NCBI RefSeq assembly: GCF_964194155.1
Contig: NC_135894.1
Location: 78,306,001 to 78,370,000, forward strand
Reading direction: 5' to 3'
From: Cetorhinus maximus
Lineage: Eukaryota
DNA: 64,000 nt
The notes under the pieces were generated by a model, which searched no databases, was not told the DNA's origin, and saw only the letters and a program-made list of their open reading frames with translations. The position numbers were made by a program, and so were the translations under genes. Below, piece by piece: positions 12,701-63,882 of the stretch; within the stretch, counting starts at the first letter, position 1; every line of letters begins with the position of its first letter.

Positions 12701-13220
12701 TAATCCTTTGAATGCAAAGAGAATTAAAATGCAGCTGCAGTGAGGCCTTGATCCCTGACTTCACCTGAGGATGAATGTGAACTTCTCTTTTTATAGTTGT
12801 GCCTGCTCATCAGTACCAACTGCATGTGGTTCAATGGTAGCCCTCTTGCCACTGAGTTTTAAAGGAAGTAGTTGCAGAGATAGTGGAGGCATTGGTCGAA
12901 ATATTCCAGAACTCACTGGATTCTGGGAGGGTCCCATTGGATTGGAAAACTGCTAATGCGATGCCCATGTTCAAGAAGGAAGGGAGACAAAAAACAGGAA
13001 ACTATAGGCCAGTTGACCTAACATCTGTCATTGGGAAAATGCTAGAGTCCATTATTAAGGAAGAAATAGGACATTTAGAAAAGCTTAACACCATTAAACA
13101 GAGTCAACATGCTTTTGTGAAAGGGAAACCGCGTTTGACAAATTTGCTTGAGTTCTTTAAGGATATAACAAGCAGAGTTGATAAAGGGGAACCGGTAGGT
13201 GTAGTGTATTTGGATTTCCA

Positions 13221-13726
13221 GAAGGCATTCGATACGGTGCCACATAAAAAGTTATTGCACAAGGTAGGAGCTCACAGTATTGGGGGTAATGTATTATCAT
13301 GGACCGAGGATTGGTTAACACACAGAAGACAGAGAGTCGGGATTAGTAGATCATTTTCAGGGGAAGAATTATCCCCCTGTTGGGGGGAAGTGCAGGAGCG
13401 GGTGCGTGCCGGCACGCCTCCGATCAACGCCCCCAATCGGGGGCACGCCGCCATTTTACGTGGGCGGGCCTTAATTGGCCCGCCCACGTAAAATGGCGGC
13501 GTGCCCCTGATTGGGGGCGTTGATCGGAGGCGTGCCGGCACGCACCCGCTCCTGCACTTCCCCCCAACAGGGGGATAATTCTTCCCCTGAAAATGATCTA
13601 CTAATCCCGACTCTCTGTCTTCTGTGTGTTAACCAATCCTCGGTCCATGATAATACATTACCCCCAATACTGTGAGCTCCTACCTTGTGCAATAACTTTT
13701 TATGTGGCACCGTATCGAATGCCTTC
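13221..13726. repeat. Long inverted repeat: 250-bp arms, 6-bp spacer TTAATT, one mismatch
   Basis: 13221-13470 is the reverse complement of 13477-13726 except 13439/13508. ORFs 12883..13491(+) and 13471..13731(-) give near-identical peptides. Confidence 0.97.
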
Positions 13727-14196
13727 AGCATGACGTCTACCAGAAAGCGCTCCCTGTGCGGGCCGGGAGTGGGATTCCCTCAGCCGAGAGTGCGCTCTTC
13801 CGTGTGAAAGAGCGCACTCATCTCCCTGAGGCTAAGTGCTGCCTCAGGGAGATCGGCGCCAAATTTAAAAATGGTAACTGTACAAAAATGTCACATGAGT
13901 TGGGACATGTCCATCACTTTTAATCAAACTTTTATTCAATTTTTAAAAACCCTCATGAAACCTCATCCCGCCCACGGATGAGGTTTCATGCTTTTTCTAA
14001 AGCCCACCAGGTCTCCCGGCATACCCGCCAACCTTAAGGTTAGACAGGCAGGTCCATTAGTTATTTAGATTAGTTTTTAAATGGCCTCAATTGGCTGTTG
14101 ACAGGTCGGCGGGTGCACAGCTGATGTCATCCCGCATCATTTTATGTGTCGGCGAGCGGGCCCCGCACCCCGCTCACCTACCTGAATATCCTGGCC
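13361..14196 (+). mobile_element. Harbinger-type MITE (about 700-bp palindrome-rich family) carrying the inverted duplication
   Basis: Termini gggaagaatt ... atatcctggcc. CAG duplicated at 13358-13360 and 14197-14199. Diagnostic catgaaacctcatcc..ggatgaggtttcatg hairpin. Confidence 0.85.
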
Positions 14197-15311
14197 CAGG
14201 TCTTTCTCGGAGGGTCGTGAATGTCTGGAATTCTCTACCCCAGAGAATTGTGGAGGCTAGATCACTGAAAGTATTTGAAGAGCAGTTGGATAAATTTTTG
14301 AAATACTGGGGAGTTGAGGGCTATGAGGAGCTAGCACAAAAGAGGAATTGAGGCCTGGGGCAGATCAGCCATGATCTTATTGAATGGCGGGGCAGGCTTG
14401 AGGGCCCGAATGGCCTACTTCTGCTCCTATTCCTTATGATCTTATGTTCTTATGGGTCAGAAAGTTGTGGGTACAAATTTCAGTACCGAGTACAAAAATC
14501 TAAGCTAACGTTGCCATATGGTTGAGGGAGTGCTATTTTGGAGGTTTTGTCTTTGAGACAGTTAAACTGAGACCCAGTCTGCCCTCTTGGGTGGATGTGA
14601 AAGATCCCATGACATTATTTCAAAGATGAGCAGGGAAGTTTCCCTTGGTATCTTGGCCAATATTTAGGCCTTAACCAAAATTACTAAGACAAATTATCCT
14701 GTTATTATCACATTGCTGTTCTTGGAACCTTGTGCAAATTTATGAGATGTGGACTGATGCGCTCAGAATTTATTGCCCATCCTTCCAATGAGAAGATGGT
14801 GAGCTGCCTTCTTGAACAAACTCTTGTGGCTTGCTAGACAATTAGGCAGTTAAGGATCATTCACATTGCTGCGGGGTTGAAGTCACATGTAAGCCAAATA
14901 ATGAACCAGACAGATCTTCAGTAATCCAATAGGTTCATGGTTACTATTAAGGATTTTTATTTAATGAGTTTTATTTAAATTCCCCGGCTGTCATAGCGGG
15001 ATTTGAACTTCTCCAGACCATTAGTATAGGCCTTTGTAATACTAGTCCAGTAACATATGCTACCCTACCCCAGTGACAACAGCAATGATTGTATTTCATT
15101 GGCTTTAAAGTGCTTTGAGATGGCTCCAGTCTTGAAAGGTGCTATATAAATGAAAGTTTCTCTTTCTTTCTCTTCTGTCACCATCTGGCCTGCTTGAGTG
15201 TGGGTGTATCTGAGCTTGTCTTTAGCAATTTAGGATGAGCGATGCTGCATGCCAGTAGGTGATTATTAGGTAATGGAGATAGTTTAAGTAAGTTATATTG
15301 GTATTTGTTGG

Positions 15312-19644: not shown

Positions 19645-20336
19645 GGGCAGAATTTTGCCCTTGATGGGCGGGTGGGCCCCACCGACTCGGCGGCAGGCGG
19701 GCAGCCGATCGCCGCCGCCGCCGAAACGGGCCCCGCCACCATTTTAAGTGGGCGGGCCAATTGCGGGCCGCCCAACGGGAAGCGCTATGCGCTTCCTGTG
19801 TGGGGGGGAGGGATTCCCCAACTGCCAGAGTGCGCATGCACGCGATAGAGCACACTTCTACCTGAGGCTAAGTGCTGTCTCAGGGAGAGCGCTGAAAGTT
19901 TTTGAAAGTTTAAAGATAGAAAAATAAAAAAATCATTAACATGTCCCCACTCATGTGACAATGTCACACGAGATGGGACATGTTAATAAATTTCACTGAA
20001 ACTTTAATAAACTTTTTTTAAACCCTACATGAAACCTCATCCCGCCGGTGAATGAGGTTTCATGTTTTTTTCAGAAGCCTGCTGGGGCTCCTGGCCTTTG
20101 TGCCAACCTTAAGGTTGGATGGGTAGGCCCTTTAATTCATTTAATTATCCTGTCAATGGCCTCAATTGGCCATTGACAGGTCGGCGGGTGGACAGCTGAT
20201 TTTGCTGTCCCGCCGCCTTCCTGAATATTTAAGTGACACGGGATGATGTCGGGGGTTCCTCCCAACATCATCCCGTGTCATTTTCCCGTCAGCGAGCGGG
20301 CCCCGCCCCCAACTCGCCGACAGAAAACTTCTGCCT
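19645..20336 (+). mobile_element. Harbinger-type MITE (about 700-bp family) nested in Harbinger A
   Basis: Termini gggcagaatttt ... aaaacttctgcct, flanks ata/cta. Same internal hairpins as the copies at 13361, 43231 and 52960. Confidence 0.85.
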
Positions 20337-27403: not shown

Positions 27404-29892
27404 TGCTCCAATGTAAAACTTGTGCCTCTGATTTTTTTAAACTATTTTCCACATGATATGGGGGTTAAATTCCGTCAGCAGGTCAAACGCAGATATCCCC
27501 GCTAATTTCAGGAAAAATCCCGGCCATCGAGTTAGATACGGCACAGAAGGAGGCTATTCAGCCTATTGAGTTCATGCTGGCCCCCTGAATCCAGCCTGTC
27601 CCACTCCCCTGCTCGACCCCCGTAGCCATTTTCCTTCAGCTGCCCGAACAGTTTCCTTTTGAATCATTGAATCCAGTGAACGTTTTATCTTGGATTATAC
27701 TGTGACTTAATATTCCATGGTTTAAGTCTATTAAATAATGTTCATTAGAAACTTACTGAAAGTAAGACAGAACACAAATAGATTTCTGTGAAAATGAGAA
27801 AGTACAATCTAACTGAAGTCATCAACCAGGTATGTCATCTACAATTGTGAAAATGTCAGGCTTTTGCCCCCTTCCCTCTTCCTTGCCTATTAAGCTCCAT
27901 TTTCTAGGCAGTTGGCCTACAGAAGGGTAAATCGAACCCATCTCTATCAATCTTCAGACAAAAGTAAAGTAAGAGATACAATTCTATCTTGGGGATGGCA
28001 CTGTTCATACTGTGAAGAATACCTTGGAAGATTTGTTAGATTCCAAAGTAGTGTGAATGTCTTTTCATCATTATTTTGAAGTTTGATAAAATGTATGTAT
28101 GCCAAGCAGAGCATTGTTGGTGTAAGTATGAATGGGAGAGGTGGAGATTTGGAACTGGGCTAAGGATGGGAGGTTATTAGTGCTTCGTGCATCAAGGTTT
28201 ACGTGAAAAGGAACCACTTATTTTCTTCAGACACCAGTCATGTTAAGGCTCACAAGTGAAAGACATGTGTAATACAGCCTGTCAAAAAATAAGCCTTAAT
28301 ATTCATGTGCAGATTGACACGATTCCTGGTCCTAGATAAGGATGATCTTTTGAGCCCAGGAGCAATTTCAAACCTGTAAGGGTCCTATGTGAAATGAGAT
28401 GGCCAGTCTTAACCAAATTCTTAGTGTGAATGAACCCCCAGTTTGCCACTAATTGACATCAAACTCGTAATCTCACTCAGAGCGGACTTAAAGATGATTC
28501 AAATAACTTGAGGGAGACATTTGTCATGGTCCAATAGAGGGTGCCGTGCTTGCATTTAATTATCAGGTACCTGACCTTGAACACTAGAAGCTGACACTTG
28601 GAGCCCAAAATGTTCCATTTCACCACACTATTAACCCTCAACTTAATGAATACAAAATTCATTGGAAAAACAGATTCAGGGCAGGCAAAGAGGAAATTGA
28701 ACCTGTTTCCTGAGGAGAGGTTAACTGAACATCATTCTCTTTCAGTGAAGGTTGGATGAGTGGTTAGATTAGAGCCCGAATGAAGCTCACACCTATGACT
28801 TAGAAAGCATTTCACATTTTCACTCTAGCATGTTTACTTAGGCAATATTTCATTAAAAAAAAACAGCTATTATTTGTGGAGATTATATTTACTGGTGGTG
28901 GTGAGTTAAGGTGCAGGGGGTTGATGGGTGCTGCCCATCGTTTAGTCTGTTGATCGTTTCTAATCGTTAACCAGTAATTGTCCAGTTCCTTTTACTGTTT
29001 GGTTGCTTTTGGTGATCACTCCATTTTTGGACCTCTTTAAGTAGCTGCTATTCTGTGAATCTGATCGAGATGTCCATGACCCTCTCACCATTCCTCTGAA
29101 CTTTGCAATGATACTTGTTTTTTCAGTTGCAATTCATTAGCTGCATTATGGCAGAATAGTTAAACTAATATTGGTGGCATAGGGTGTTGGTTTATAAATA
29201 CTCAGCAGGAAATGAAAAGGCCATGGAATTTTGACCAATAAATATTTTATTTAAACGACATTCAGTAGGAGATTTTTGTGACTTCTTTCCATCCTTGTGA
29301 TATTTTCATCAAGTGTTAATATGGCTAGAGTTTCAAAAGATAACACAAAACGAGCTTCATTATATTATTATTAACTGATAAATGTGGCAGTCAACCCCAC
29401 AGCAGCAAATACCTGATTAGTGACTATTAATGCTGGGGATGAGAGCATGCAATATTATTGTACAACTGCTTAAAACATTTGTATTAAATTCTTCTGTCAC
29501 ATTGACCAATGCATTTCAAAAGATAAAACTAAAAACTGATCTAACAGCCCCAAATGAGGTGCTGTGGACCATTAGCAGCAGAACTGTATACCAGCACAGT
29601 CTGTAATTACAACGCCCTCACGTTCCTCTATCCCCATCGAACCAGAAGATCAACTCTAGTTTAATGCAGAGTGTAGAAGGACATGCCAGGAATAGCACTT
29701 TAGGATGAAACAGCAACTTGTTGAAGCTACAACACATTAAACAGCAAAAGCAGCAGGCTATAGCCAGAGATATGCAACTCAGCAAAACTCTAAAACAAAA
29801 GCAAAATACTGAAGATGCTGGAAATCTGAAATAAAAATGGAAAATCTTGGAAAAACTCAGCAGGTCTGGCAGCACCTGTGGAGAGAGAAATA

Positions 29893-29930
29893 GAGTTAAC
29901 GTTTCGAGTCCGTATGACTCTTCTTCAGAA
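29893..29930 (-). ncRNA. Minimal type I hammerhead ribozyme motif (Penelope-associated)
   Basis: CTGAAGA-A-GAGTC-atacg-GACTC-GAAA-CGTTA: catalytic boxes intact, perfect 5-bp stem II, palindromic AACGTT stem III. Confidence 0.7.
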
Positions 29931-30369
29931 TGGAAACTGGCCCTTGCAGGGGAAACGGTGGGCGATTTGAGGAAAAGAGATTGGATTAAAAAAAGGGTCA
30001 AGATGGAGGAAACAGTTCATGGTCCGAAGTTGTTGAACTCAACGTTAAGTCCAGAAAGCTGCAAAGTGGCTAATCGGACGATGAAGTGCTGTTCCTCCAG
30101 TTTGCTTTGGGCTTCACTGGAACATTGCAGCAGACCTCCCCCTACAAGGACCAGTCTGTAGCCTGTTCTTATGTTTTGCTTTCACAGAGCGCTGACCCTT
30201 GTTCTGCTGTTAACACCTTCTGCTATCTTACCTTTATGCCTCCTTTAGTTTTTAACACCACCATTAACACTCCCTTTGTCTTGTGTCCATAGCATCCTTG
30301 TCAAATCTCTCCTGAGCTCCGACCTTTCCCTGACCTTTTATTTTGCTCCAAATCCATCACCTTTCTGTG

Positions 30370-30403
30370 CTGAAGAAGAGCCATAGGGACTCGAAACGTT
30401 AAC
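30370..30403 (+). ncRNA. Minimal hammerhead ribozyme motif, second copy
   Basis: CTGAAGA-A-GAGCCATAGGGACTC-GAAA-CGTTA. Stem II has one mismatch. Confidence 0.6.
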
Positions 30404-30879
30404 CGTTTCTTTCTCCACAGATGCTGCCAGACCTGCTGAGTTTTTCCGGCATTTTCTGTTTTGATTTCAGTACAAAACTCTGCTGCCTGAGCTCATCCTC
30501 TAGAGAATGTTGATGAATAATTAGATAATCACCTTCAACTAAAAGTGCTCTGACTCACTGGAGGCTGCCACGTTCATGCATCTAAATATCTGGCCAATTT
30601 CTTTCACTCCACGTGATATTAGGTAGCAGTTAAGTACACTGGACGCAGCAACGGCTGTGGCCCCAATAAAATCCCAGCTGTAGCGCTAAAGCCCTGCACG
30701 CCAGAACTTGCTACAATCCTGGTCATTTTATTCCAGTGCGGCTACCGATCTAAAAAAAAACCTAACAATCCTGAAACTGATATTGATCACAAGATGGCAG
30801 GTACTCTGAATGATTGCTTCCTCAAACTATTCACACGGACAAACTGCTGTCCCCAAATAAAGAGTGTCAATGCTTAATT

Positions 30880-43230: not shown

Positions 43231-43935
43231 GGGGAGAATTTTCTGCGTGTTAGGTGGGTCGGTTGTGAGCGGGGGCAGGCAGGTGTGGAGCCAATCGCTG
43301 TCCGCGATCCGCTGCTCGCCGCCCTTTTACGTGGGCAGGCCAATTAAGGCCCTCCCAGGGTGACGCACGGCCAGTAGCGCTCAGCGCTACCTGTGGTGGG
43401 CAGGGGGAGGAGGGAGAGTCAGGGCCTGCGCTCTTTCACGCATGCATACGAAAGAGTGCAGAAATCTCCCTGAGGCACGGAGCTGCCTCAAGGTGATTAA
43501 GTACGTAATAAAAGTTCAGAAATAATAAAGTTAAAACTTATTTAGACATACTCCCTCATGTGACAGTGTCACATGAGCTGGGACATGTTTATAAATTGTG
43601 CAAAAGTTATTTATTTATTTAATAAAACCTTCAGGAAAACTCATCCTGCCCTTGGATGAGGTTTCCTGAAAAACGCAAAGGCCTCTTGGGCTATTTGCCT
43701 GCCCGCCAACATTAAGGTTGGATGGGCAGCATTGAAAACTACTTTAATTAGGTATTTAATAGCCTTAAAAGGCCATTGACAGTTCTCAGCGGGTGCACAG
43801 CCGCCTCCGGCGCGCACCCGCCAAACATAATATCTAAATGATGTGCGCTGACACCGGGACGCACGCCCGACATCACCGCGCATCATTTTACATGTCCGTG
43901 TGCTGGGCCTGCATGCTGACGTCAAAATTCTGGCC
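43231..43935 (+). mobile_element. Harbinger-type MITE (about 700-bp family)
   Basis: Termini ggggagaatttt / aaaattctggcc. AGT duplicated at 43228-43230 and 43936-43938. Confidence 0.88.
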
Positions 43936-44267: not shown

Positions 44268-44857
44268 GAGGAAAAATGTTCCCCCTGTCAGGGAGGGTTG
44301 TGCGAGGCCAGGCGGGGGCTGGCGCAAACCCGATCGGTGGGTGTCCCGACGTCACCGCGCATCATTTAGATTTCCAGTTTGGCGGGTGCACAGCGCCCGC
44401 CAAACTGTCAAAGGCCTATTGAGGCCTGTTAAAAACTAATTTAAGCTATTAAATGAGCTGCCCGTCCAACCATAATGTTGGCGGGCAGGCGAAGAGCCCA
44501 GGCGGCCTTCACATTTTTCATGAAACCTCATCCACGGGCAGGATGAGGTTTCATGAAGAGTTTTAAAATTCAATAAAAAATTTAAAAACAATTCTTTGAC
44601 ATGTCCCAGCTCATGACAGTGTCACGCATTTTAAAAGTTTTCAATTACTTTATTTCGGTTTTTAAATGTCAAACTGATCTCCCTGAGGCCCACACAGGGA
44701 GCACTCAACACTTCCAGACGAGTATCACGCTGGGTGGGCCTTAATTGGCCCGCCCACGTAAAATGGCGGTGCGGCCCCGATTGGGGGCGCCGATCGGGTT
44801 CGCACCTGCCCCTGCCCGCCCCCGCACAACCCCCCGATGGGGGGAGAATCTTGCCCC
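44268..44857 (-). mobile_element. Harbinger-type MITE (about 700-bp family, reverse orientation)
   Basis: CTG duplicated at 44265-44267 and 44858-44860. About 70-bp imperfect terminal inverted repeats. Family hairpins present. Confidence 0.85.
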
Positions 44858-47800
44858 CTGAGTCGGGGCCATGCTGAAAGACATAAATAAATTATTAATG
44901 AGGGGGAAACGGCTGCTGTCGACGAGTTTTAGGAACAGGATTTGAGAGAATCCCACCTCCAGGAATCTTTAATAACTTACAGCTCATGGCAGCCCTGCAA
45001 TGAGATGGGTGCAGTAAGTCATTACTTTGCAAAGAGAAATTTTATTGACATAATAACACATTGTTTAAGGGCTAAAAATCAGGCTTTATTCACTGAAGCG
45101 TTGAGGCAAACCATATTAATCACATACTCTACATCCAAAATTGGCAAGCAATTCACTGGGTCTGAAACTATTTCCTAATGAGACAGTTTGTTTTTAAGTG
45201 TATAAATTATGTGCCATAAATTTTATAAATGTCTCGTTATTGCAAAGATCTGGAAATGAAAAATATATCACACTTGTTTAGTTGAAATTCAGTTCGCCAT
45301 TTAGCAGCCTTCTTTTAAATAAACTCCTTCAAACCTTTGATCTTCATGCAGTAATTTTCCTCCTCAGGTTAGATCACTAAAGAGTGAACAGCAGTGAGGC
45401 TCTATGTCTTCTGAGACTATACCAAAAATGTATTTAGTAGTAGAAATATGGTGAAGTTTGAATGCGGTTTTCAAGCTTAAGAGCAAATTGCTAGGAGCAA
45501 GCACAGATTCTCACCATGGCTCAGTATTTCAACATTACTTGTGTAAAGGGCATTTTAAAAAGACTCAAAGGATAAGCACACATTATTCATTATTCCTTAC
45601 CTTATAGTAACTGTAAGCAATTTTATTGTCCTTATGCCCATAATGAAATCCCACTTTAAACATATAATCATCACATATAACAATACATTTCCCCAAATTA
45701 TTTTTTATTGCCTAGCATGTCTAATAATGTTAGTCATCAGTCATCTCTTACACACTAACAACTTATTTTAAGTGATTTTAATTTGTTTAATGGGCTTTTA
45801 ACTAGATTTGTTTCCAGCCTGAATGATTGTTTGCCAAAGAACAAATTGGCTATTATTTTTTTTGAAACAACTGATTAAAATTTTGATGCAAAGATAACAT
45901 TTCTTGACAGATTAGTTGTGCATTGATCAGAAGTTACATTTAGTTCAGCATCATGTATCACAAAATTTATCACGCCTCAAGTTCGCCTCAATCACCTCTT
46001 GCCCTCTGCAGAATTAAATATGTTCAGGTGAGTTGGTTGGTCAATGATCCTAATCCAGTCTGAATTCAGGATGTCACAAGAAACATACCAGTGCTGTTCC
46101 ATACTCTTTTTTTTTAAATCAGAATTTGTTTTCTCTTTGTCCCATTTGGCAGAATGGGCAATGTTCTCCCAGGCCTTGTCTTGTGTTAGTTTATGATTGG
46201 ATATTAACTTTAAAAGAATTCCTTTCCTGTCTGCTGGAAATGCCTGTGTTCTGACAGCTGGAAGTCTTTCAAAAACTGCTCGCAGCTAAAAACGTATATT
46301 AAAAGGACATATAGAGATAATAAAAGATAGAAAAAGGAAACCAAAATACAGATATGCGCAATTCCAGACGAACGGTTAGGACATAATTGTCAAGGATGAA
46401 GTGAGGCCCATCAAAATGTTCCTCTAGTACCTCAACTCTACCCAACCCCAGACCCCTCATTCCTTCCATGCCAACCTATGCCCCCCCACCCACCCTCCAT
46501 GGCCCTTTATAGCCCCTATGCCAACTTAGTGCCAACCCAACACTCCTTTCCCTTAAATCTACCATGCCAACTCACCCAGTTTCCACCATGGGCAGACCTC
46601 AGGGCCCATGCTGAGATTAAAGCTCTTAAATGCCTCTTGATGAATTCACTATTTCAAAAAAACACACACTCATTGAAAAACACTCATTCACTACATTTAA
46701 CTTCCTTTAATCCCATATGAAAACAAGTATTGTATTCATAGTCGAATTTCAAACAGTGCATAACCACTTGGAGCTGTCAATCAAACTGAACTGACATGCA
46801 CCCTGCTGTGATAATGATAGGTTGTGAAATCAGTCATGCAACACTAATCATGTAAGAATCATCTTCAGGGTAATGTCAACAGAGTGAAACAGCAAGCACT
46901 AGTGAGGGTCAAATAAGATGCAGATCTAGAGAATTATCCAACCGAAGAAAAAATAGGACTCCAAGACAATTTAACGGGATGTGAAAATAAATTACATAAT
47001 TATAAGGAAAAAGCAAAACAAGCTTCAGTATCACAAGAAATGGTGCAATTAATCACTGCAATATCAATAGAGTTGGAAAATAAATTTGTGGTACCTTGTC
47101 TTGTCTTCCTTATTTTACAGGCTCTTCAGCAGAATCTCCATTTGTTAAATTTGTTTATGGTATCTGTATGGTTATTTGTATCTGGTGGATTAACAACTAC
47201 AAACCATGCAATAGAGCTTCAGCAGTTATCCCTCTGGGTCTCATTAAAAGTGGAAGAGATACAAATCTGTCAGTTAATATCTTTTGAAATAATTTTTCCA
47301 TTGTATTATGCATCGTTGTGCCTGTGTGAATTTTGTCTCCGTGTTTTGTTTTCTTGAGCATAAGAAACCAATAAAAAGAAGCAGATTAATTAATAATCGT
47401 TCAAATGTATCTTAGCGCATCAGAAGATTTCAAAGCACAAATGAATTACTTTTAGAGTACAATGACCATTATGCAGGCAATTAATTGCAACTGACTAGCA
47501 GGTTCAACCATTATAAAATATTTGTATTCTAAGGCTATAAAACACGCATCTTGACCAATATTCTATTTATATTAATAGGGATTGTCCAAACTGTTTATAT
47601 TAATCTTTGTCGATTATAGTTGGCAGCACAATTATTCTGGAGCTTTTTATATTTGATGGGTTGGGGAAACTGCAGTATAAATGGGGAATAAGATCAATAA
47701 TCTGACAATATATCTCATTCTGTAAACATTGTAAAACCAACTCCAGGAGGCAAACTTACACTATTTTGGACTAACATTGACAATTGTATAACTGCAGCTC

Positions 47801-50757: not shown

Positions 50758-51339
50758 TATGACTCATTGAAAGCCATCACTCCCACTTAAGAGCATTATT
50801 TTGTGGAAAGGAGGGAGTCTGTTGCCATCTTGCAAGAAAGATTTTTAAAATCACCCTGACACTTGTTGCAAATAAAATAAATTGTTATTTTTAATGAACC
50901 ACCATTTTACTTACACCTAAGCAGAAACTGCATGGTTTTCCTTCTGTAAATCAGAAATGCTGCAAGTGTGTGTATGCACTGTTATTGGTGATGTCCACAA
51001 ATTTGATTGATTCCAGCACAGGTACAACAGGTATGAAAATGTGTTGAACAACCAAAAATTCAATATCAGTTGTTGAAAGAGAGAACAGCACTAAACAATC
51101 ATAGCTGTTTATAATATTAGCCAGTAACATTAGTTACAGCACAGCAGGGTAACAGTTGTGCTATTAGATGAGTAATCCAGAGTCCTGGACTAATGATTGA
51201 GTAACCTGAGTTCAAATCCCACTGCAGCAGTTGGGGAATTTAAATTTGGTTAATTAATTTTAAAAATAAACCTGAAATTAAAGCTATTAGTCATCTGGTA
51301 GTACAGAACTTGAGTATTGCTGAAAAAAGAGACATATTT

Positions 51340-51373
51340 TGTCAAAGCTTTTTGTCTTGCACTCATCAGGACA
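51340..51373 (-). ncRNA. Degenerate minimal hammerhead ribozyme motif
   Basis: TGTC-CTGATGA-GTGCAAGAC-AAAA-AGCTTT-GACA: stem I TGTC/GACA intact, GAAA box mutated to AAAA. Confidence 0.5.
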
Positions 51374-51838
51374 ATTCGCAGGAATACCAATGTCAAGGCA
51401 AACAACTATTGCATTCTGCAATTGGACATTATTTGCTGAATAATCCTCAATGTGCTAAGAATTAAGCTGACAATAAATTTAAGATTGTCAGTGTGACATA
51501 TTTGCGTGTACTGGAAGCTACATATATTAATACACAGGGCCCTGTTCTTTGCAGACAGAAAGAACATGTACACACATTTTGCCTGCTTCAGCTAAACAAA
51601 ATAAGTGGCAGCCATTCACTGGTTCATTCCCCAGGCCAATGTCTTGACCAATCAGAGTCAAGCTGCCTGGTTTAAATTTCAATCAATTCTTGGTAGTTAA
51701 CTGTCAGTCACCATCAACTGCTGCATTTTCCATGGCCATGCCTTTACCAATCAGAATCCACTTGCCAACCAATCAGCATTATCTTTTCATACAGTACAAA
51801 TTTGTTGTTTCCCGTGTTATTGGCATTTACGTCAGAAT

Positions 51839-51872
51839 TGTTTTGATGAGCGCAAGACGAAAAGCTTTGACA
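51839..51872 (+). ncRNA. Degenerate minimal hammerhead ribozyme motif
   Basis: TGTT-TTGATGA-GCGCAAGAC-GAAA-AGCTTT-GACA: GAAA intact, first C of CTGATGA mutated. Confidence 0.5.
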
Positions 51873-52959
51873 AAAAAATCTCTTATTCCAGCAATAAAAA
51901 AGCTATTAACAATGATCCAACAATCAGTCTATCGAATTTTCATAAAAACCCATCTGGTTCACTATTGTCCGTTAGGGAATGTTATCTGCAGTCTTTACCT
52001 TGTCTGGCCTGTAAGTGACACCAGACCCACAGCAATGTGGTTGACTCTTAACTGCCCTTTGAAATGGCCTAGGAAGCCTCCCAGCTGCCCAATGGGCAAT
52101 AAATGCTGGGCTTGCCATTAATGACGACATCCGGTGAATGGATAAAAGAATGGTTACAGTACTAGCCACCATTCATCATAATACTAATTATCAACATTAT
52201 GTATAATGGTTCTTACAATATCCATTATAATATTAACCAGAAAAAACAGTACCAATACCAACTAAAAAGATTTATCATATTAATCTGCAACATTAGCTAC
52301 AGTAATAAGCGCCATTACGATCCCCGTAGAGACCAATAACTTTTAAAAAGAAATATGAGTTTCCGAATGACTGGCGGAAAGAAGCAGATGAGAAGATTTC
52401 ATGCTTTAAGAGTTTTACTATGACAAACAAACTAAAATCAACATAGACTAAACAGCACTTAACAGGCAACTAATATAGCAAACTGCAGAAAATTACTAAT
52501 TAATTCAACTGGAAAAACTTGATGACCTATTTGTATGTTATTCTGTGCTCTCAGAAGATATGTAAGCATTATAGATTAAGTCAAAACCCTGCTTGGCATT
52601 TCAGCAGGCTTCCTTCTCCCTTCCATTTCAGGGTGGACCTTTGTAAGTCCCTTAACTCAGTCTTCTGAGCGTCTGCAAATTGACTAACAAACACAAGGTC
52701 CACTCTGGTGACTCCTTGGTTCTTAAATCTCCAATAGTCCTGTTCATTCTGTCTTCTTCTTTATGAACAGAAAACTGACTATTACAAGCATTCAGCTCTC
52801 ACAGTTGTAGCTTTTCTGCTCCTACATCCAGCCTCTCTCTCTCTCTCTTTCTCACTCTCTTCCTCTCTTCCTCTCTCCAGGACTCTGAGAGTCTGTATCC
52901 AGAAAGACCAATGTCCCTCTTTTTGGTCAAGGTGTGAAAACTGGCATTTGCTTTTCTAT

Positions 52960-53659
52960 GGGCAGAATTTTCCTCCCGTTGGGGGGGAAGTTCAGGAGCG
53001 GGTATGTGGAGACGCGTCTCCGATCGGCGCCCCCAATCGGGGGCTCGCTGCCATTTTACATGGGCGGGCCAATTAAGGCTCGCCCAGCATGACATCCACA
53101 AGGGAGCGCTATGCACTCCCTGTGCGGGCAGGGGGTTATTACCTGAGCCGAGAATGCACTCCATCGCGCATGTGCGCGAAAGAGCACACTCATCTCCCTG
53201 AGGCTAAGTGCTGCCTCAGGGAGATCAGCGCCAAATTCAAAAATGTTTCAAACAGAAAAAAAAAATTCCCCTGACATGTCCCCTCATATGACACTGTCAC
53301 ATGAGTAGGGCCATGTCCATCAATTTTAGTTACACTTTTATTGGATTTTTACAAACCTACATGAAACCTCATCTCGCCCGTGGATGAGGTCTCATGCTTT
53401 TTCCAATGTCCACCAGGGCTCCCAGCCTGCCCGCCAACCTTCAAGGTTGGACGGGCAGGTCCGCTAATTACGTTAATTACTTTGTCAATGGCCTCAATTG
53501 GCCATTGACAGGTCAACGGGTGCACAGCTAATTCGAGAGAATTGAGAATTGAAATGAGGAGGGGTGACATTGGGAGTTCCGCCTGACATCATCCTGTATC
53601 ATTTTACAAGTCGGCGAGCGGGCCCCGCCCCCCCCCCCCCCCACCGGGAAATCCTGGCC
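52960..53659 (+). mobile_element. Harbinger-type MITE (about 700-bp family), first of a tandem pair
   Basis: Termini gggcagaatttt / aaatcctggcc. TAT at 52957-52959 and 53660-53662. Confidence 0.88.
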
Positions 53660-53662
53660 TAT

Positions 53663-54140
53663 TTGGAGAATTTTCTCCCCATCGGGGGAGTTGGGCAGGA
53701 ATGTGCGCAGGCGGGCATGCAGCCGATCACCGCCCACAATCCTGCCGAAGAAGAGCGCGGAAATCTCCCTGAGGCAGTTCCGTGCCTCAGGGAGATTAGT
53801 TTGATTTTTAAAAAATTTTAATAAAGAAAAATAAGATTTTTTAAGACATGTCCCCTCATGAGCTGGGACATGTTAATGAATTTTATTAAAAATTTTTATT
53901 AAACTTTACAAACCTTCATGAAACCTCAGCCCGCCCTTGGATGAGATTTCATGATAAATGCAAAGGCCACCTTAAGGTTGGACGGGCAGCTCAGTTAATT
54001 AGTTTAATTGGTATTTAATGGCCTTAATAGGCCTTTGACAGTTCGGCGGGTGCATGCCGAACTGAAGATCTTAATGACGTGTGGTGACGTCGGGACACAC
54101 GCCCGACATCACTGCGCGTCATTTTATGCAAAATCTGGCC
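53663..54140 (+). mobile_element. Harbinger-type MITE (internally deleted), second of a tandem pair
   Basis: Termini ttggagaatttt / aaaatctggcc, followed by TAT at 54141-54143. Confidence 0.85.
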
Positions 54141-55267: not shown

Positions 55268-56696
55268 GGGCCAGATTTTCTCCTCCTGCACCTGCCCAGA
55301 ATTGAGTCAGGAATTGTTAAAATGAGGCCCATGGGGCTGAAATTTCAAACTTACCCTGCCATTCCCAACTCATGCCATCTTCCCCTAGCCAGGAAATGTG
55401 TCAGGAGTGATCCTGCACTCAGGTCCTGTGATGGTGAGGTTGCCAAAATAACATCCTGGGGGAAATTTGACTGTATTTTTGTTATGATGGGAGGGATTCA
55501 GAGGCGTGTGGGAACCCCATCAGGTAAGTCAGTTCATGGACCTTGGGGGGAAGCCTGCTGTTGAGTCAGGAAGGTTTTTGACAGGTAAGTTTAAAAGATC
55601 TTGCCAGTGCCCCCTCATATCCCCCTTGCTCCCTCCATGTCCCCTCATATCCCCCATGCTCCCTCCATGCCCCCTCATACCCTCCATGCTCCCTCCATGC
55701 CCCCTCATACTCCCATACCCCTTCCATTCCCCATGCTGCTTCCACACCCTTTCCATTACCCCCATGCCCCAATCATCCTCCGTACCCATTTTCTCAGTAT
55801 CCTCTATGCACAGAACCAATGAGCCATTGGCAGATTTGGAAATGCTCCTGAAACTGATACAATGAGCAAAGAGGCTTAGAAAATCTTTGAAAAGGCATTT
55901 CATTTTGCAATTTCATAAAAGTGTTAATCAACCACAGCCATTCACAATATCAATGACAAAACTTTAATCCTCTTAACACCTCATAATCTTACTCAAATAA
56001 AAAACATGTATTGAAGCACCACAGCAAAGAAAGAAAACCTTATTACAACATGATAAATGTGTCAATCAAATAAACTGAGCAATCCCCTTGAAGCTGTGTA
56101 AATAGACCCCTGCTAAGCTGAGTTCATATTCATTCTTGGAACTCAGTGAAGCATTCATAATGTGGCCATCTGGAAAAATAGATGACTGGCCATCTGTTCA
56201 AACTGATTCTGTTCATACAGTTTCCAGATGGCTTTGTTATGAATGCTTGACTGAGCTCCAAGACTGCCTAATGGATTCTGCCCTGTAGGCAATGTTGACA
56301 CAACTAGAAGCAGAGTGCTAGCTTTGTTTGATTGACACTTTCATGATATTGTAATAAGTTTTTTCTGTCTTTGATACGGTTTTCAAATGCCTGTTTGTTT
56401 ATTTGGGGGGAGCATGGGGTTTGCAAGAGGCATGGAGTGGGCATGGATTTCTTAACAACCATATAGAGGATTACTAAATCAACGTCCCAGTGCACCCAGG
56501 CAGGCCCTCTAACCAGCCTGCCTTGCCAACTGACTCTGCCTCAGCCCTGCATAGAGAGGTGGTAGACCTGAACCTTGTCTGTCCATGTCTCATGGAAACA
56601 TTACAATTGGAGTGGGAGGACCTGACGGAGTTGGGATTGTGAAGTCAGGAAATGGAAGGACTCATGGTTCCTGAAACTGAGAGGAAGATCCAGCCC
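55268..56696. mobile_element. Harbinger-type foldback MITE, about 1.4 kb
   Basis: Termini gggccagattttc / gaagatccagccc. ATG duplicated. Internal long inverted repeats centred near 56195. Confidence 0.75.
55608..55745. repeat. 30-bp minisatellite (gccccctcatatcccccatgctccctccat), about 4 units
   Basis: Direct repeat visible in the sequence. It yields the repetitive PPCPLISPML and GMRGHGGSM peptides in the ORF track. Confidence 0.85.
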
Positions 56697-63239: not shown

Positions 63240-63882
63240 GGCCTGAATTTTTCAGTCGGTGTGTGGCGTGCGGGGGTGGTCCCAACACGCCGACTTGTAA
63301 AATGACACGCGATGATGTCAGGCATGCGTCCCAATGTCATTGCGCCACGGTGTCTCGCGATGTTTCATTCAGCAGGCACACGCCGGAGTCGGCTGCACGC
63401 CCGCCGATATTTAAACGGTCTATTAAGGCCATTAAGGAAGTAATTAAAGGCATTGTTGATGCTGCCCATCCGACCCTAAGGTTGGTGTGGAAGGTCAAAA
63501 GGCCAAGCGGCCTTCACGTTTTTTAGGAAATCTCATCCACGAGTGGGATGAGGTTTTCTAAAGCTTTTATTAATTAAATAAAAAGATTTTATGAAATTTA
63601 TGTCCCATCTCATGTGACACAGTCATGTGGGGGTACATGTTTAAATAAATTTTCGAACCAATTATTTATTTGAAAAGCCTTCAATCTCCCTGAGGCAGCT
63701 TTGTGCCTAAGGGAGCTTGAAGCGCTCTTTCACGCATGTGCAAAAGAGCGCTGACTCCGACTCTCTCTCCTCCCCCTGCCCACACAGGTAGTGCTGAGCG
63801 ACCACCCCCGCCCGCTCCCGCCCCCGCCCCCGCCCACTCCCACCCCCGCCCGCTCCCGCAGACCGACTGAAAAATTCAGGCC
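63240..63882 (-). mobile_element. Harbinger-type MITE (about 700-bp family) with perfect 21-bp TIRs
   Basis: ggcctgaatttttcagtcggt (63240-63260) is the exact reverse complement of 63862-63882. ATG duplicated at 63237-63239 and 63883-63885. Confidence 0.92.

What the first reader, a model, noticed from the sequence alone, without database searches (positions are those of the whole stretch)
13221..13745. 250-bp palindrome built by template switching at a MITE-borne hairpin, with an inverted spacer
Seen: sibling MITE copies read tgggcgggcc-AATTAA-ggc(t)cgccca-gcatgac (e.g. 53061-53093). Here the spacer is flipped to TTAATT and followed by an inverted copy of the preceding 250 bp, which spans the MITE left end, its TSD and 140 bp of flanking CR1. 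The normal MITE sequence then resumes (agcatgacgtc, 13727). Spacer inversion plus arm extension is the known signature of inter-strand template switching at quasi-palindromes. The single arm mismatch is CG to CA, consistent with CpG decay after the event. Inference: this abundant MITE family seeds fold-back duplications, and this one has persisted although long palindromes are usually unstable.
Basis: partly seen in the sequence, partly recalled or inferred. Interest (0 to 1): 0.7.

Follow-up and report, generated by a model that had tools for sequence, protein, structure and literature searches.

The report
Transposon hairpin that seeds copying flips
A 250-letter mirror-image duplication sits on a small hairpin inside a very common jumping gene, most likely made when the copying machinery briefly jumped to the opposite strand; the same hairpin has its centre flipped in about 1 in 125 copies across the genome, but a long duplication like this one was found only once.

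Summary
Observation confirmed: arms 13221-13470 and 13477-13726 (250 bp, one CpG-to-TpG mismatch on the new arm), spacer TTAATT, element resuming at 13727. The host is a non-autonomous Harbinger element: 3-bp target duplications, and the same ends and hairpin bound 6 of 6 transposase loci examined. The layout is a '3-1-2-4' inter-strand template switch, a described class. Genome-wide tests support this: the spacer is flipped in 67 copies against 8,278 normal ones, scattered over the family tree (one clade rejected, p 2.6e-5), and the three clear arm extensions (31, 38, 250 bp) all carry the flipped spacer. Two claims fail or weaken: only one arm over 40 bp was found against 20,777 normal copies, so the family is not shown to seed long palindromes often; and the event looks young (about 2% of the element's divergence), so long persistence is not shown. 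Public contigs did not settle the return junction; an artefact is unlikely but open. Two look-ups in this scan's earlier notes found no report of this family or event.

The parts
12856..13357 (+). CR1-type LINE fragment, reverse transcriptase region, broken by stops
13221..13470 (+). Left (original) arm of the palindrome: 137 bp LINE, target duplication, 110 bp of element left end
   Evidence: continuous with upstream LINE
13358..13360 (+). Left target-site duplication CAG
   Evidence: sequence; pairs with 14197-14199
13361..13470 (+). Left end of non-autonomous Harbinger element, terminal inverted repeat at 13361-13372
   Evidence: matches left ends of 6 of 6 extended transposase loci and window siblings
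13461..13470 (+). Left 10-bp arm of the native hairpin; first switch point lies within it
   Evidence: hairpin is perfect in the subfamily consensus; position of the switch inside the arm is inferred and cannot be narrowed
13471..13476 (+). Flipped spacer TTAATT (family state AATTAA)
13477..13726 (-). Right (new) arm: inverted copy of 13221-13470; inverted element end 13477-13586, inverted target duplication 13587-13589, inverted LINE 13590-13726
13508..13508 (+). Only arm mismatch, CpG to TpG on the new arm (partner 13439)
   Evidence: siblings keep CG here; T allele seen in contigs of runs X16, X17
13727..14196 (+). Rest of the Harbinger element, from the return point to the right terminal repeat
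   Evidence: 75% to sibling 53086-53532; at most 1 nt shared at the return junction
13954..13990 (.). Second native hairpin (15-bp arms, 7-nt spacer), used as comparison
   Evidence: flipped in 4 against 3,504 normal copies
14197..14199 (+). Right target-site duplication CAG
14200..14450 (+). 3' part of the LINE; about 0.75-0.8 kb of LINE is missing between left and right flank
   Evidence: alignment of both flanks to paralogues L185, L186
52961..53660 (+). Sibling element with the normal AATTAA hairpin at 53061-53086

Best explanation
The palindrome is an inverted copy of 250 bp centred on the flipped spacer of a 10-bp hairpin in an old non-autonomous Harbinger transposon, and it likely formed recently in one inter-strand template switch during DNA replication. 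Steps: (1, shown) the element inserted into a LINE with a CAG duplication and decayed in place; (2, inferred) the new strand stopped in the hairpin's left arm and paired with the identical sequence that the right arm offers on the opposite strand; (3, shown as outcome) about 256-266 nt were copied backwards through spacer, left arm, element end, target duplication and LINE; (4, inferred) the strand returned to its own template at the 3' foot of the hairpin with at most 1 nt of homology, a net gain of 241 bp; (5, inferred) one CpG on the new arm has since decayed. The same hairpin undergoes the short form of this event repeatedly (flip only, about 0.8% of copies; flip plus 10-30 bp extension, a few copies); the 250-bp arm is the far tail of that series. 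No function is proposed: it is a mutational scar.
For: [quoted passage not shown] Flip needs six simultaneous transversions; the stepping stone of a two-step route (4-nt A/T spacer) was found once against 67 flips. Flipped copies are not a clade: at least 10 changes forced, AU p 2.6e-5, 19 flipped against 29 other rows, spacer left out of the alignment. All 3 clear extensions on this side (250, 38, 31 bp) and the 1 mirror case (L142, 20 bp perfect) have the flipped spacer; chance under independence about 5e-7 for 3 of 3. All three return within 3 nt of the hairpin's 3' foot. Both arms share the private changes of this LINE copy, which is 9-13% from its closest paralogues, and L075, L079 carry an already decayed CpG on both arms, so copying happened in place. 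A second hairpin of the element also flips (4 against 3,504).
Against: No read or contig was shown to bridge 13726/13727. In run X15 the contig across the LINE-element junction inside the arm has depth 68.7 and the single-copy right-end junction 78.6, not the twofold excess a doubled arm would give; that sample may lack the palindrome or be heterozygous, and these depths are crude. Three further matches (L076, L077, L078; arms 11-17 bp) have unflipped spacers; I set them aside as a sister subfamily with one change, but counted in they make it 3 of 6. The return junction has almost no homology, unlike L075 (4 nt) and L079 (2 nt). The copied length is about twice the great-ape maximum of 128 (PMC7954356), though under the 318 bp seen in humans (bioRxiv 10.1101/2021.11.26.470150). 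Sequence cannot separate a replication fork from break repair.
Confidence: 0.72

Rival explanations
1. Same inter-strand copying geometry, but during repair of a break at the hairpin (microhomology-mediated break-induced replication or templated end joining) rather than at a stalled fork.
For: Return junction has at most 1 nt of homology, as end joining would leave; the tract is far longer than the usual 12 nt of short-range switches.
Against: The product continues a series of short events at the same hairpin that return at its foot with no loss of sequence; no filler or deletion at either junction.
Confidence: 0.15
2. Assembly or library chimera: the inverted arm does not exist in the animal.
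For: No bridging contig among those listed (most pieces were not shown); arm depth not doubled in X15; no second copy of the locus among 40 scored matches in the assembly.
Against: The one mismatch is a CpG transition on the new arm and the T allele occurs in contigs of X16 and X17 at zero differences; the element resumes exactly at the hairpin foot; shorter events of the same design occur at other loci; the flipped 35-mer is in contigs of three runs under two organism labels (X16, X17, X19).
Confidence: 0.08
3. Two steps: the copy first had its spacer flipped, later the new strand folded back on itself and extended the arm (intra-strand).
For: Flipped copies without extension exist (67), some in the same subfamily (L041, L047, L049).
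Against: Only 0.8% of copies are flipped, yet 3 of 3 clear extensions are (3 of 6 with the doubtful rows).
Confidence: 0.03
4. Transposase-driven rearrangement or inverted retro-insertion (Penelope-like) made the palindrome.
For: The genome holds very many Harbinger transposase matches (76,310 first-look candidates, 150 scored); earlier notes describe Penelope palindromes in this genome (unchecked).
Against: Neither junction is at a terminal repeat; no new target duplication flanks the arm; the arm is local LINE plus element DNA with this copy's private changes.
Confidence: 0.02

Closest known systems
Short-range template switch, type 3-1-2-4 / 1-3-4-2 of the four-point model (Loytynoja and Goldman 2017, PMC5453318; passages read)
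   Same: [quoted passage not shown]
   Different: Copied tract about 256-266 nt against median 12, maximum 128 in great apes (PMC7954356, passages) and maximum 318 before, 97-180 after repeat masking in humans (bioRxiv 10.1101/2021.11.26.470150, passages). Here the ancestral state is read from thousands of sibling copies, not from a sister species.
Recurrent spacer inversion at perfect inverted repeats in yeast (Abraham and Hazkani-Covo 2021, PMC8604942; passages)
   Same: Flips on perfect arms longer than 9 bp, short spacers, recurring; rarely with arm extension (1 of 10).
   Different: Ten events in genes across strains there; here 67 flips at one hairpin across copies in one vertebrate genome. 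That paper reports a preference for long arms; here the 10-bp hairpin flips about 7 times more often than the 15-bp one (p 7e-7).
ODIRA, origin-dependent inverted repeat amplification (PMC11790251; passages)
   Same: Short inverted repeat lets the leading strand switch to the lagging-strand template.
   Different: ODIRA gives kilobase triplications with an inverted middle and needs an origin; this is a local 241-bp gain with a return switch.
PIF/Harbinger non-autonomous elements (Tourist-like MITEs); Harbinger3_DR target consensus as quoted in PMC3016246 (passages)
   Same: Short terminal repeats beginning GG, 3-bp target duplication, autonomous partner with DDE_Tnp_4 transposase; the focal right flank CAG GTCTTT equals the 3' half of the quoted target consensus.
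   Different: About 700 bp made of some eleven internal hairpins; target triplets vary (TAT, ATG, ATT, CAG and others). No Repbase or Dfam was available to name the family; one paper search for shark Harbinger MITEs gave 0 hits.

Membership tests
Template switch type 3-1-2-4 | New inverted repeat whose second arm is the reverse complement of sequence upstream of switch point 1 | tested here: met
   249 of 250 sites
Template switch type 3-1-2-4 | Spacer inverted relative to the ancestral state | tested here: met
   8,278 AATTAA against 67 TTAATT copies; flips not a clade
Template switch type 3-1-2-4 | Synthesis resumes on the original template downstream of points 1 and 2 | tested here: met
   Element resumes at 13727, last base of the hairpin's right arm
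Template switch type 3-1-2-4 | Pre-event allele seen at the same locus in another haplotype or species | tested here: inconclusive
   No relatives held; no second copy among 40 scored matches; laid contigs swamped by repeats
Template switch type 3-1-2-4 | Arises at a replication fork in a single step | not testable with these tools
   Inferred from geometry and from the flip-extension coupling
PIF/Harbinger non-autonomous element | 3-bp target-site duplication | tested here: met
   Exact triplet in 22 of 39 copies with both ends found (of 50 examined), control triplet shifted by 3 in 1 of 39; focal CAG/CAG
PIF/Harbinger non-autonomous element | Short terminal inverted repeats shared with a Harbinger transposase element | tested here: met
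   6 of 6 extended PF13359 loci are bounded, 4.3-4.9 kb apart, by these terminal repeats with the same hairpin 60-110 bp inside the left end; the six were picked from 30 because they showed partial matches
PIF/Harbinger non-autonomous element | Second, Myb/SANT-like ORF in the autonomous partner (recalled feature) | not tested
   No search run
PIF/Harbinger non-autonomous element | High copy number, no coding capacity | tested here: met
   20,777 matches to one 40-nt stretch at up to 3 mismatches; about 700 bp of hairpins
ODIRA | Triplication with inverted middle copy containing an origin | tested here: not met
   Only two copies of 250 bp, left and inverted right
Intra-strand fold-back (quasi-palindrome correction) | Spacer keeps its orientation | tested here: not met
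   Spacer flipped

The most novel reading that the evidence does not exclude
The subterminal AATTAA hairpin of this Harbinger family is a germline template-switch hotspot whose rate can be read from tens of thousands of copies (about 0.07 flips per hairpin for each substitution per site), set by hairpin sequence more than arm length; its rare run-on switches pull flanking host DNA inside the element's terminal repeats and create a perfect fold-back mini-element (13361-13586), a replication-based route to flank capture and to new fold-back transposons.
Probability: 0.25. Interest if true: 0.65.

Novelty: new member of a known kind. Interest (0 to 1): 0.42.

Why it matters
The single palindrome is a clean, unusually long example of a described mutation type. 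The wider value is the family: one of the human surveys read here removes repeats before analysis, whereas here thousands of copies of the same hairpins act as replicate mutation-accumulation lines. They give a per-hairpin flip frequency (0.8% against 0.11% for two hairpins in one element), a length spectrum from 6 to about 260 nt, and a direct test of inter- against intra-strand switching. If run-on switches can later be mobilised, they would also explain how short-ended DNA transposons gain long arms and host sequence; no mobilised copy was found.

Tried and rejected
Laying reads at 90% likeness was swamped by repeat copies; at 99% the listed pieces were 32-84 nt and none bridged the return junction, with 9,015 pieces not shown; depth in the junction bin was non-zero in all four runs, including another organism label, so it does not discriminate. 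A mirror-side pattern gave 84 matches; all 84 were read: arms 11-20 bp, nearly all a sister subfamily or related ends with a natively longer hairpin, so they are not events; L142 is one mirror event, L055 and L119 are plain flips, and the script's 'flipped' call for L082 is wrong on reading its flanks. L001/L077, L002/L076 and L078 first looked like unflipped extensions; they resemble a subfamily reading CCCAGCGTAAAAC with one change and were left out of the count of clear extensions. A search for the LINE deletion junction as a family-wide variant found 0 matches. A search for a second haplotype of the locus found none among 40 scored of 10,269 candidates. In the first tree (51 rows) long branches met; three rows (L004, L006, L035) were dropped for the clade test; label clustering was weak (36 of 500 shuffles as low). 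Only 20 of the 67 flipped and the first 30 of 8,278 normal copies (all on contig 1) went into trees. ORF list showed nothing needed for this finding; gene context was not resolved. Paper searches for this effect inside transposon families listed nothing on it; only listings were seen for those, the library lacks most subscription journals, and no supplements were read.

Full report
Observation. The palindrome is as described: arms 13221-13470 and 13477-13726, 250 nt, spacer TTAATT, with one mismatch, CG on the left arm and TG on the right. The left arm is continuous with the upstream LINE, so it is the original; the right arm is the copy. After it the element resumes at 13727 with the last base of the hairpin's right arm. 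The template would have continued TGG, the sequence continues AGC, and only one base is shared at this junction. Net gain is 241 bp. The duplex folds at -353 kcal/mol as single-stranded DNA.

Host element. The element runs 13361-14196 between CAG duplications. Among 50 genomic copies, 39 had both ends found and 22 of these had an exact 3-bp duplication, against 1 for a shifted control. The genome (4.0 Gb; earlier notes of this scan call it a basking shark, not checked here) has very many PF13359 transposase matches. Of 30 such loci, six with partial matches were extended; all six are bounded by the same terminal repeats 4.3-4.9 kb apart and carry the same AATTAA-type hairpin near the left end. 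The element is therefore a non-autonomous Harbinger derivative. Its subfamily consensus has some eleven internal hairpins. The flanking LINE lacks about 0.75-0.8 kb right at the insertion site; this junction is not a family variant (0 matches). The simplest reading is deletion first and insertion second, since the joined site CAG GTCTTT matches the 3' half of the Harbinger3_DR target consensus quoted in PMC3016246 (passages); this is inference.

Is the flip a subfamily trait? No. With matched 34-nt patterns there are 8,278 normal copies and 67 with the spacer flipped and nothing else changed, 0.8%. On a tree built without the spacer, 20 flipped copies scatter among 30 normal ones; after dropping three long-branch rows, at least 10 changes are forced by well-supported branches and one clade is rejected at p 2.6e-5. 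AATTAA and TTAATT differ at all six sites, and a 4-nt A/T spacer, the stepping stone for deletion plus insertion, occurs once. The flipped 35-mer is also present in contigs of public runs X16, X17 and X19. Gene conversion from a few flipped donors is not excluded, and flips may be slightly over-counted if the event also perfects the arms that the pattern demands.

Do extensions go with flips? An exact search found 3 copies with an extended arm, a looser one 6 against 20,777 normal copies at the same stringency. Three are clear: this one (250 bp), L079 (38 bp, 1 mismatch) and L075 (31 bp, none); all have the flipped spacer and return within 3 nt of the hairpin's 3' foot. Three (L076, L077, L078; 11-17 bp) are unflipped and look like a sister subfamily with one change; with them the count is 3 of 6, still far above 0.8%. 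All 84 mirror-side matches were read: none exceeds 20 bp, and one, L142, is a mirror event with a perfect 20-bp arm and a flipped spacer. A second hairpin (15-bp arms, 7-nt spacer) is flipped in 4 against 3,504 copies, seven times less often (p 7e-7). These searches need an intact hairpin, so old or damaged events are missed.

Mechanism. In the four-point model, type 3-1-2-4 makes an inverted repeat with an inverted spacer and cannot arise by intra-strand folding (PMC5453318, passages). That is this layout. The copied tract (about 256-266 nt, depending on where in the 10-bp arm the switch fell) exceeds the great-ape maximum of 128 (PMC7954356, passages) but not the 318 bp seen in human haplotypes (bioRxiv 10.1101/2021.11.26.470150, passages). 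Recurrent flips on perfect arms are known in yeast (PMC8604942, passages). Shown here: geometry, ancestral state, recurrence, coupling of flip and extension, copying in place after decay. Inferred: a single step, a stalled fork rather than break repair, and CpG decay after the event.

Age. One difference over two 250-bp arms is 0.2% per arm, against 11.6% between the host copy and its subfamily consensus: about 2% of the element's age (95% range 0.04-10%), unless arm-to-arm conversion has reset the clock. Long survival is not shown; one long arm in over 20,000 copies fits rare formation, quick loss, or both.

Reality check. Public contigs from sample S5 hold the LINE-element junction (84 nt, no differences) and the T allele of the right arm (81-83 nt, no differences). 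No listed piece bridges the return junction, and in X15 the arm's depth (68.7) is not twice that of a single-copy junction (78.6). These data neither confirm nor refute the arm. I put an artefact at about 8% because of the CpG mismatch, the exact return point and the shorter natural parallels.

Consequence worth noting. The event leaves a perfect 226-bp fold-back unit (13361-13586) and places 137 bp of flanking LINE inside the element's outer terminal repeats. No transposed copy of either was found (one search lists this locus alone with a long arm).

Verdict. Real and well explained; a long new member of a known mutation class. The family-wide recurrence is the more useful result. Five paper searches (listings only) showed no study of this inside a transposon family, which is weak evidence of novelty. 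Interest 0.42.

Noticed in passing
window 13360/14197 (LINE flanks): About 0.75-0.8 kb of the LINE is missing within 1-2 nt of the target duplication; the joined site resembles half of the Harbinger3_DR target. Two other copies of this subfamily (L005, L022) also have a CAG duplication followed by GTC.
   Followed up: partly
L075 (G000:C6:142398132) and L079 (G000:C23:17128092): Shorter flip-plus-extension events at the same hairpin, arms 31 and 38 bp, return junctions sharing 4 and 2 nt.
   Followed up: yes
L142 (G000:C30:10516359): Mirror-type event: left arm replaced by a perfect 20-bp inverted copy of the downstream side, spacer flipped.
   Followed up: yes
L178-L183: Full-length Harbinger elements of 4.3-4.9 kb with transposase; L178 has a hairpin of this type near both ends. 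76,310 first-look transposase candidates suggest a very large Harbinger load in this genome.
   Followed up: partly
window 43291-43909 and 44292-44861: Two copies of the family lie close together in opposite orientation, forming an imperfect long inverted repeat (81% over 159 nt).
   Followed up: no
window 19705-20321, 52960-54054, 63240-63882: Further family copies, including what appears to be a nested or tandem pair at 52960-54054 and one with 27-bp terminal repeats at 63240-63882.
   Followed up: no
window 29826-30470, 51337-51875, 56034-56363, 1222-1809: Other imperfect inverted repeats of 41-69 nt arms, likely ends of other small transposons or paired repeats.
   Followed up: no
L056: The hairpin's right arm and following bases appear tandemly duplicated (16-nt unit).
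   Followed up: no
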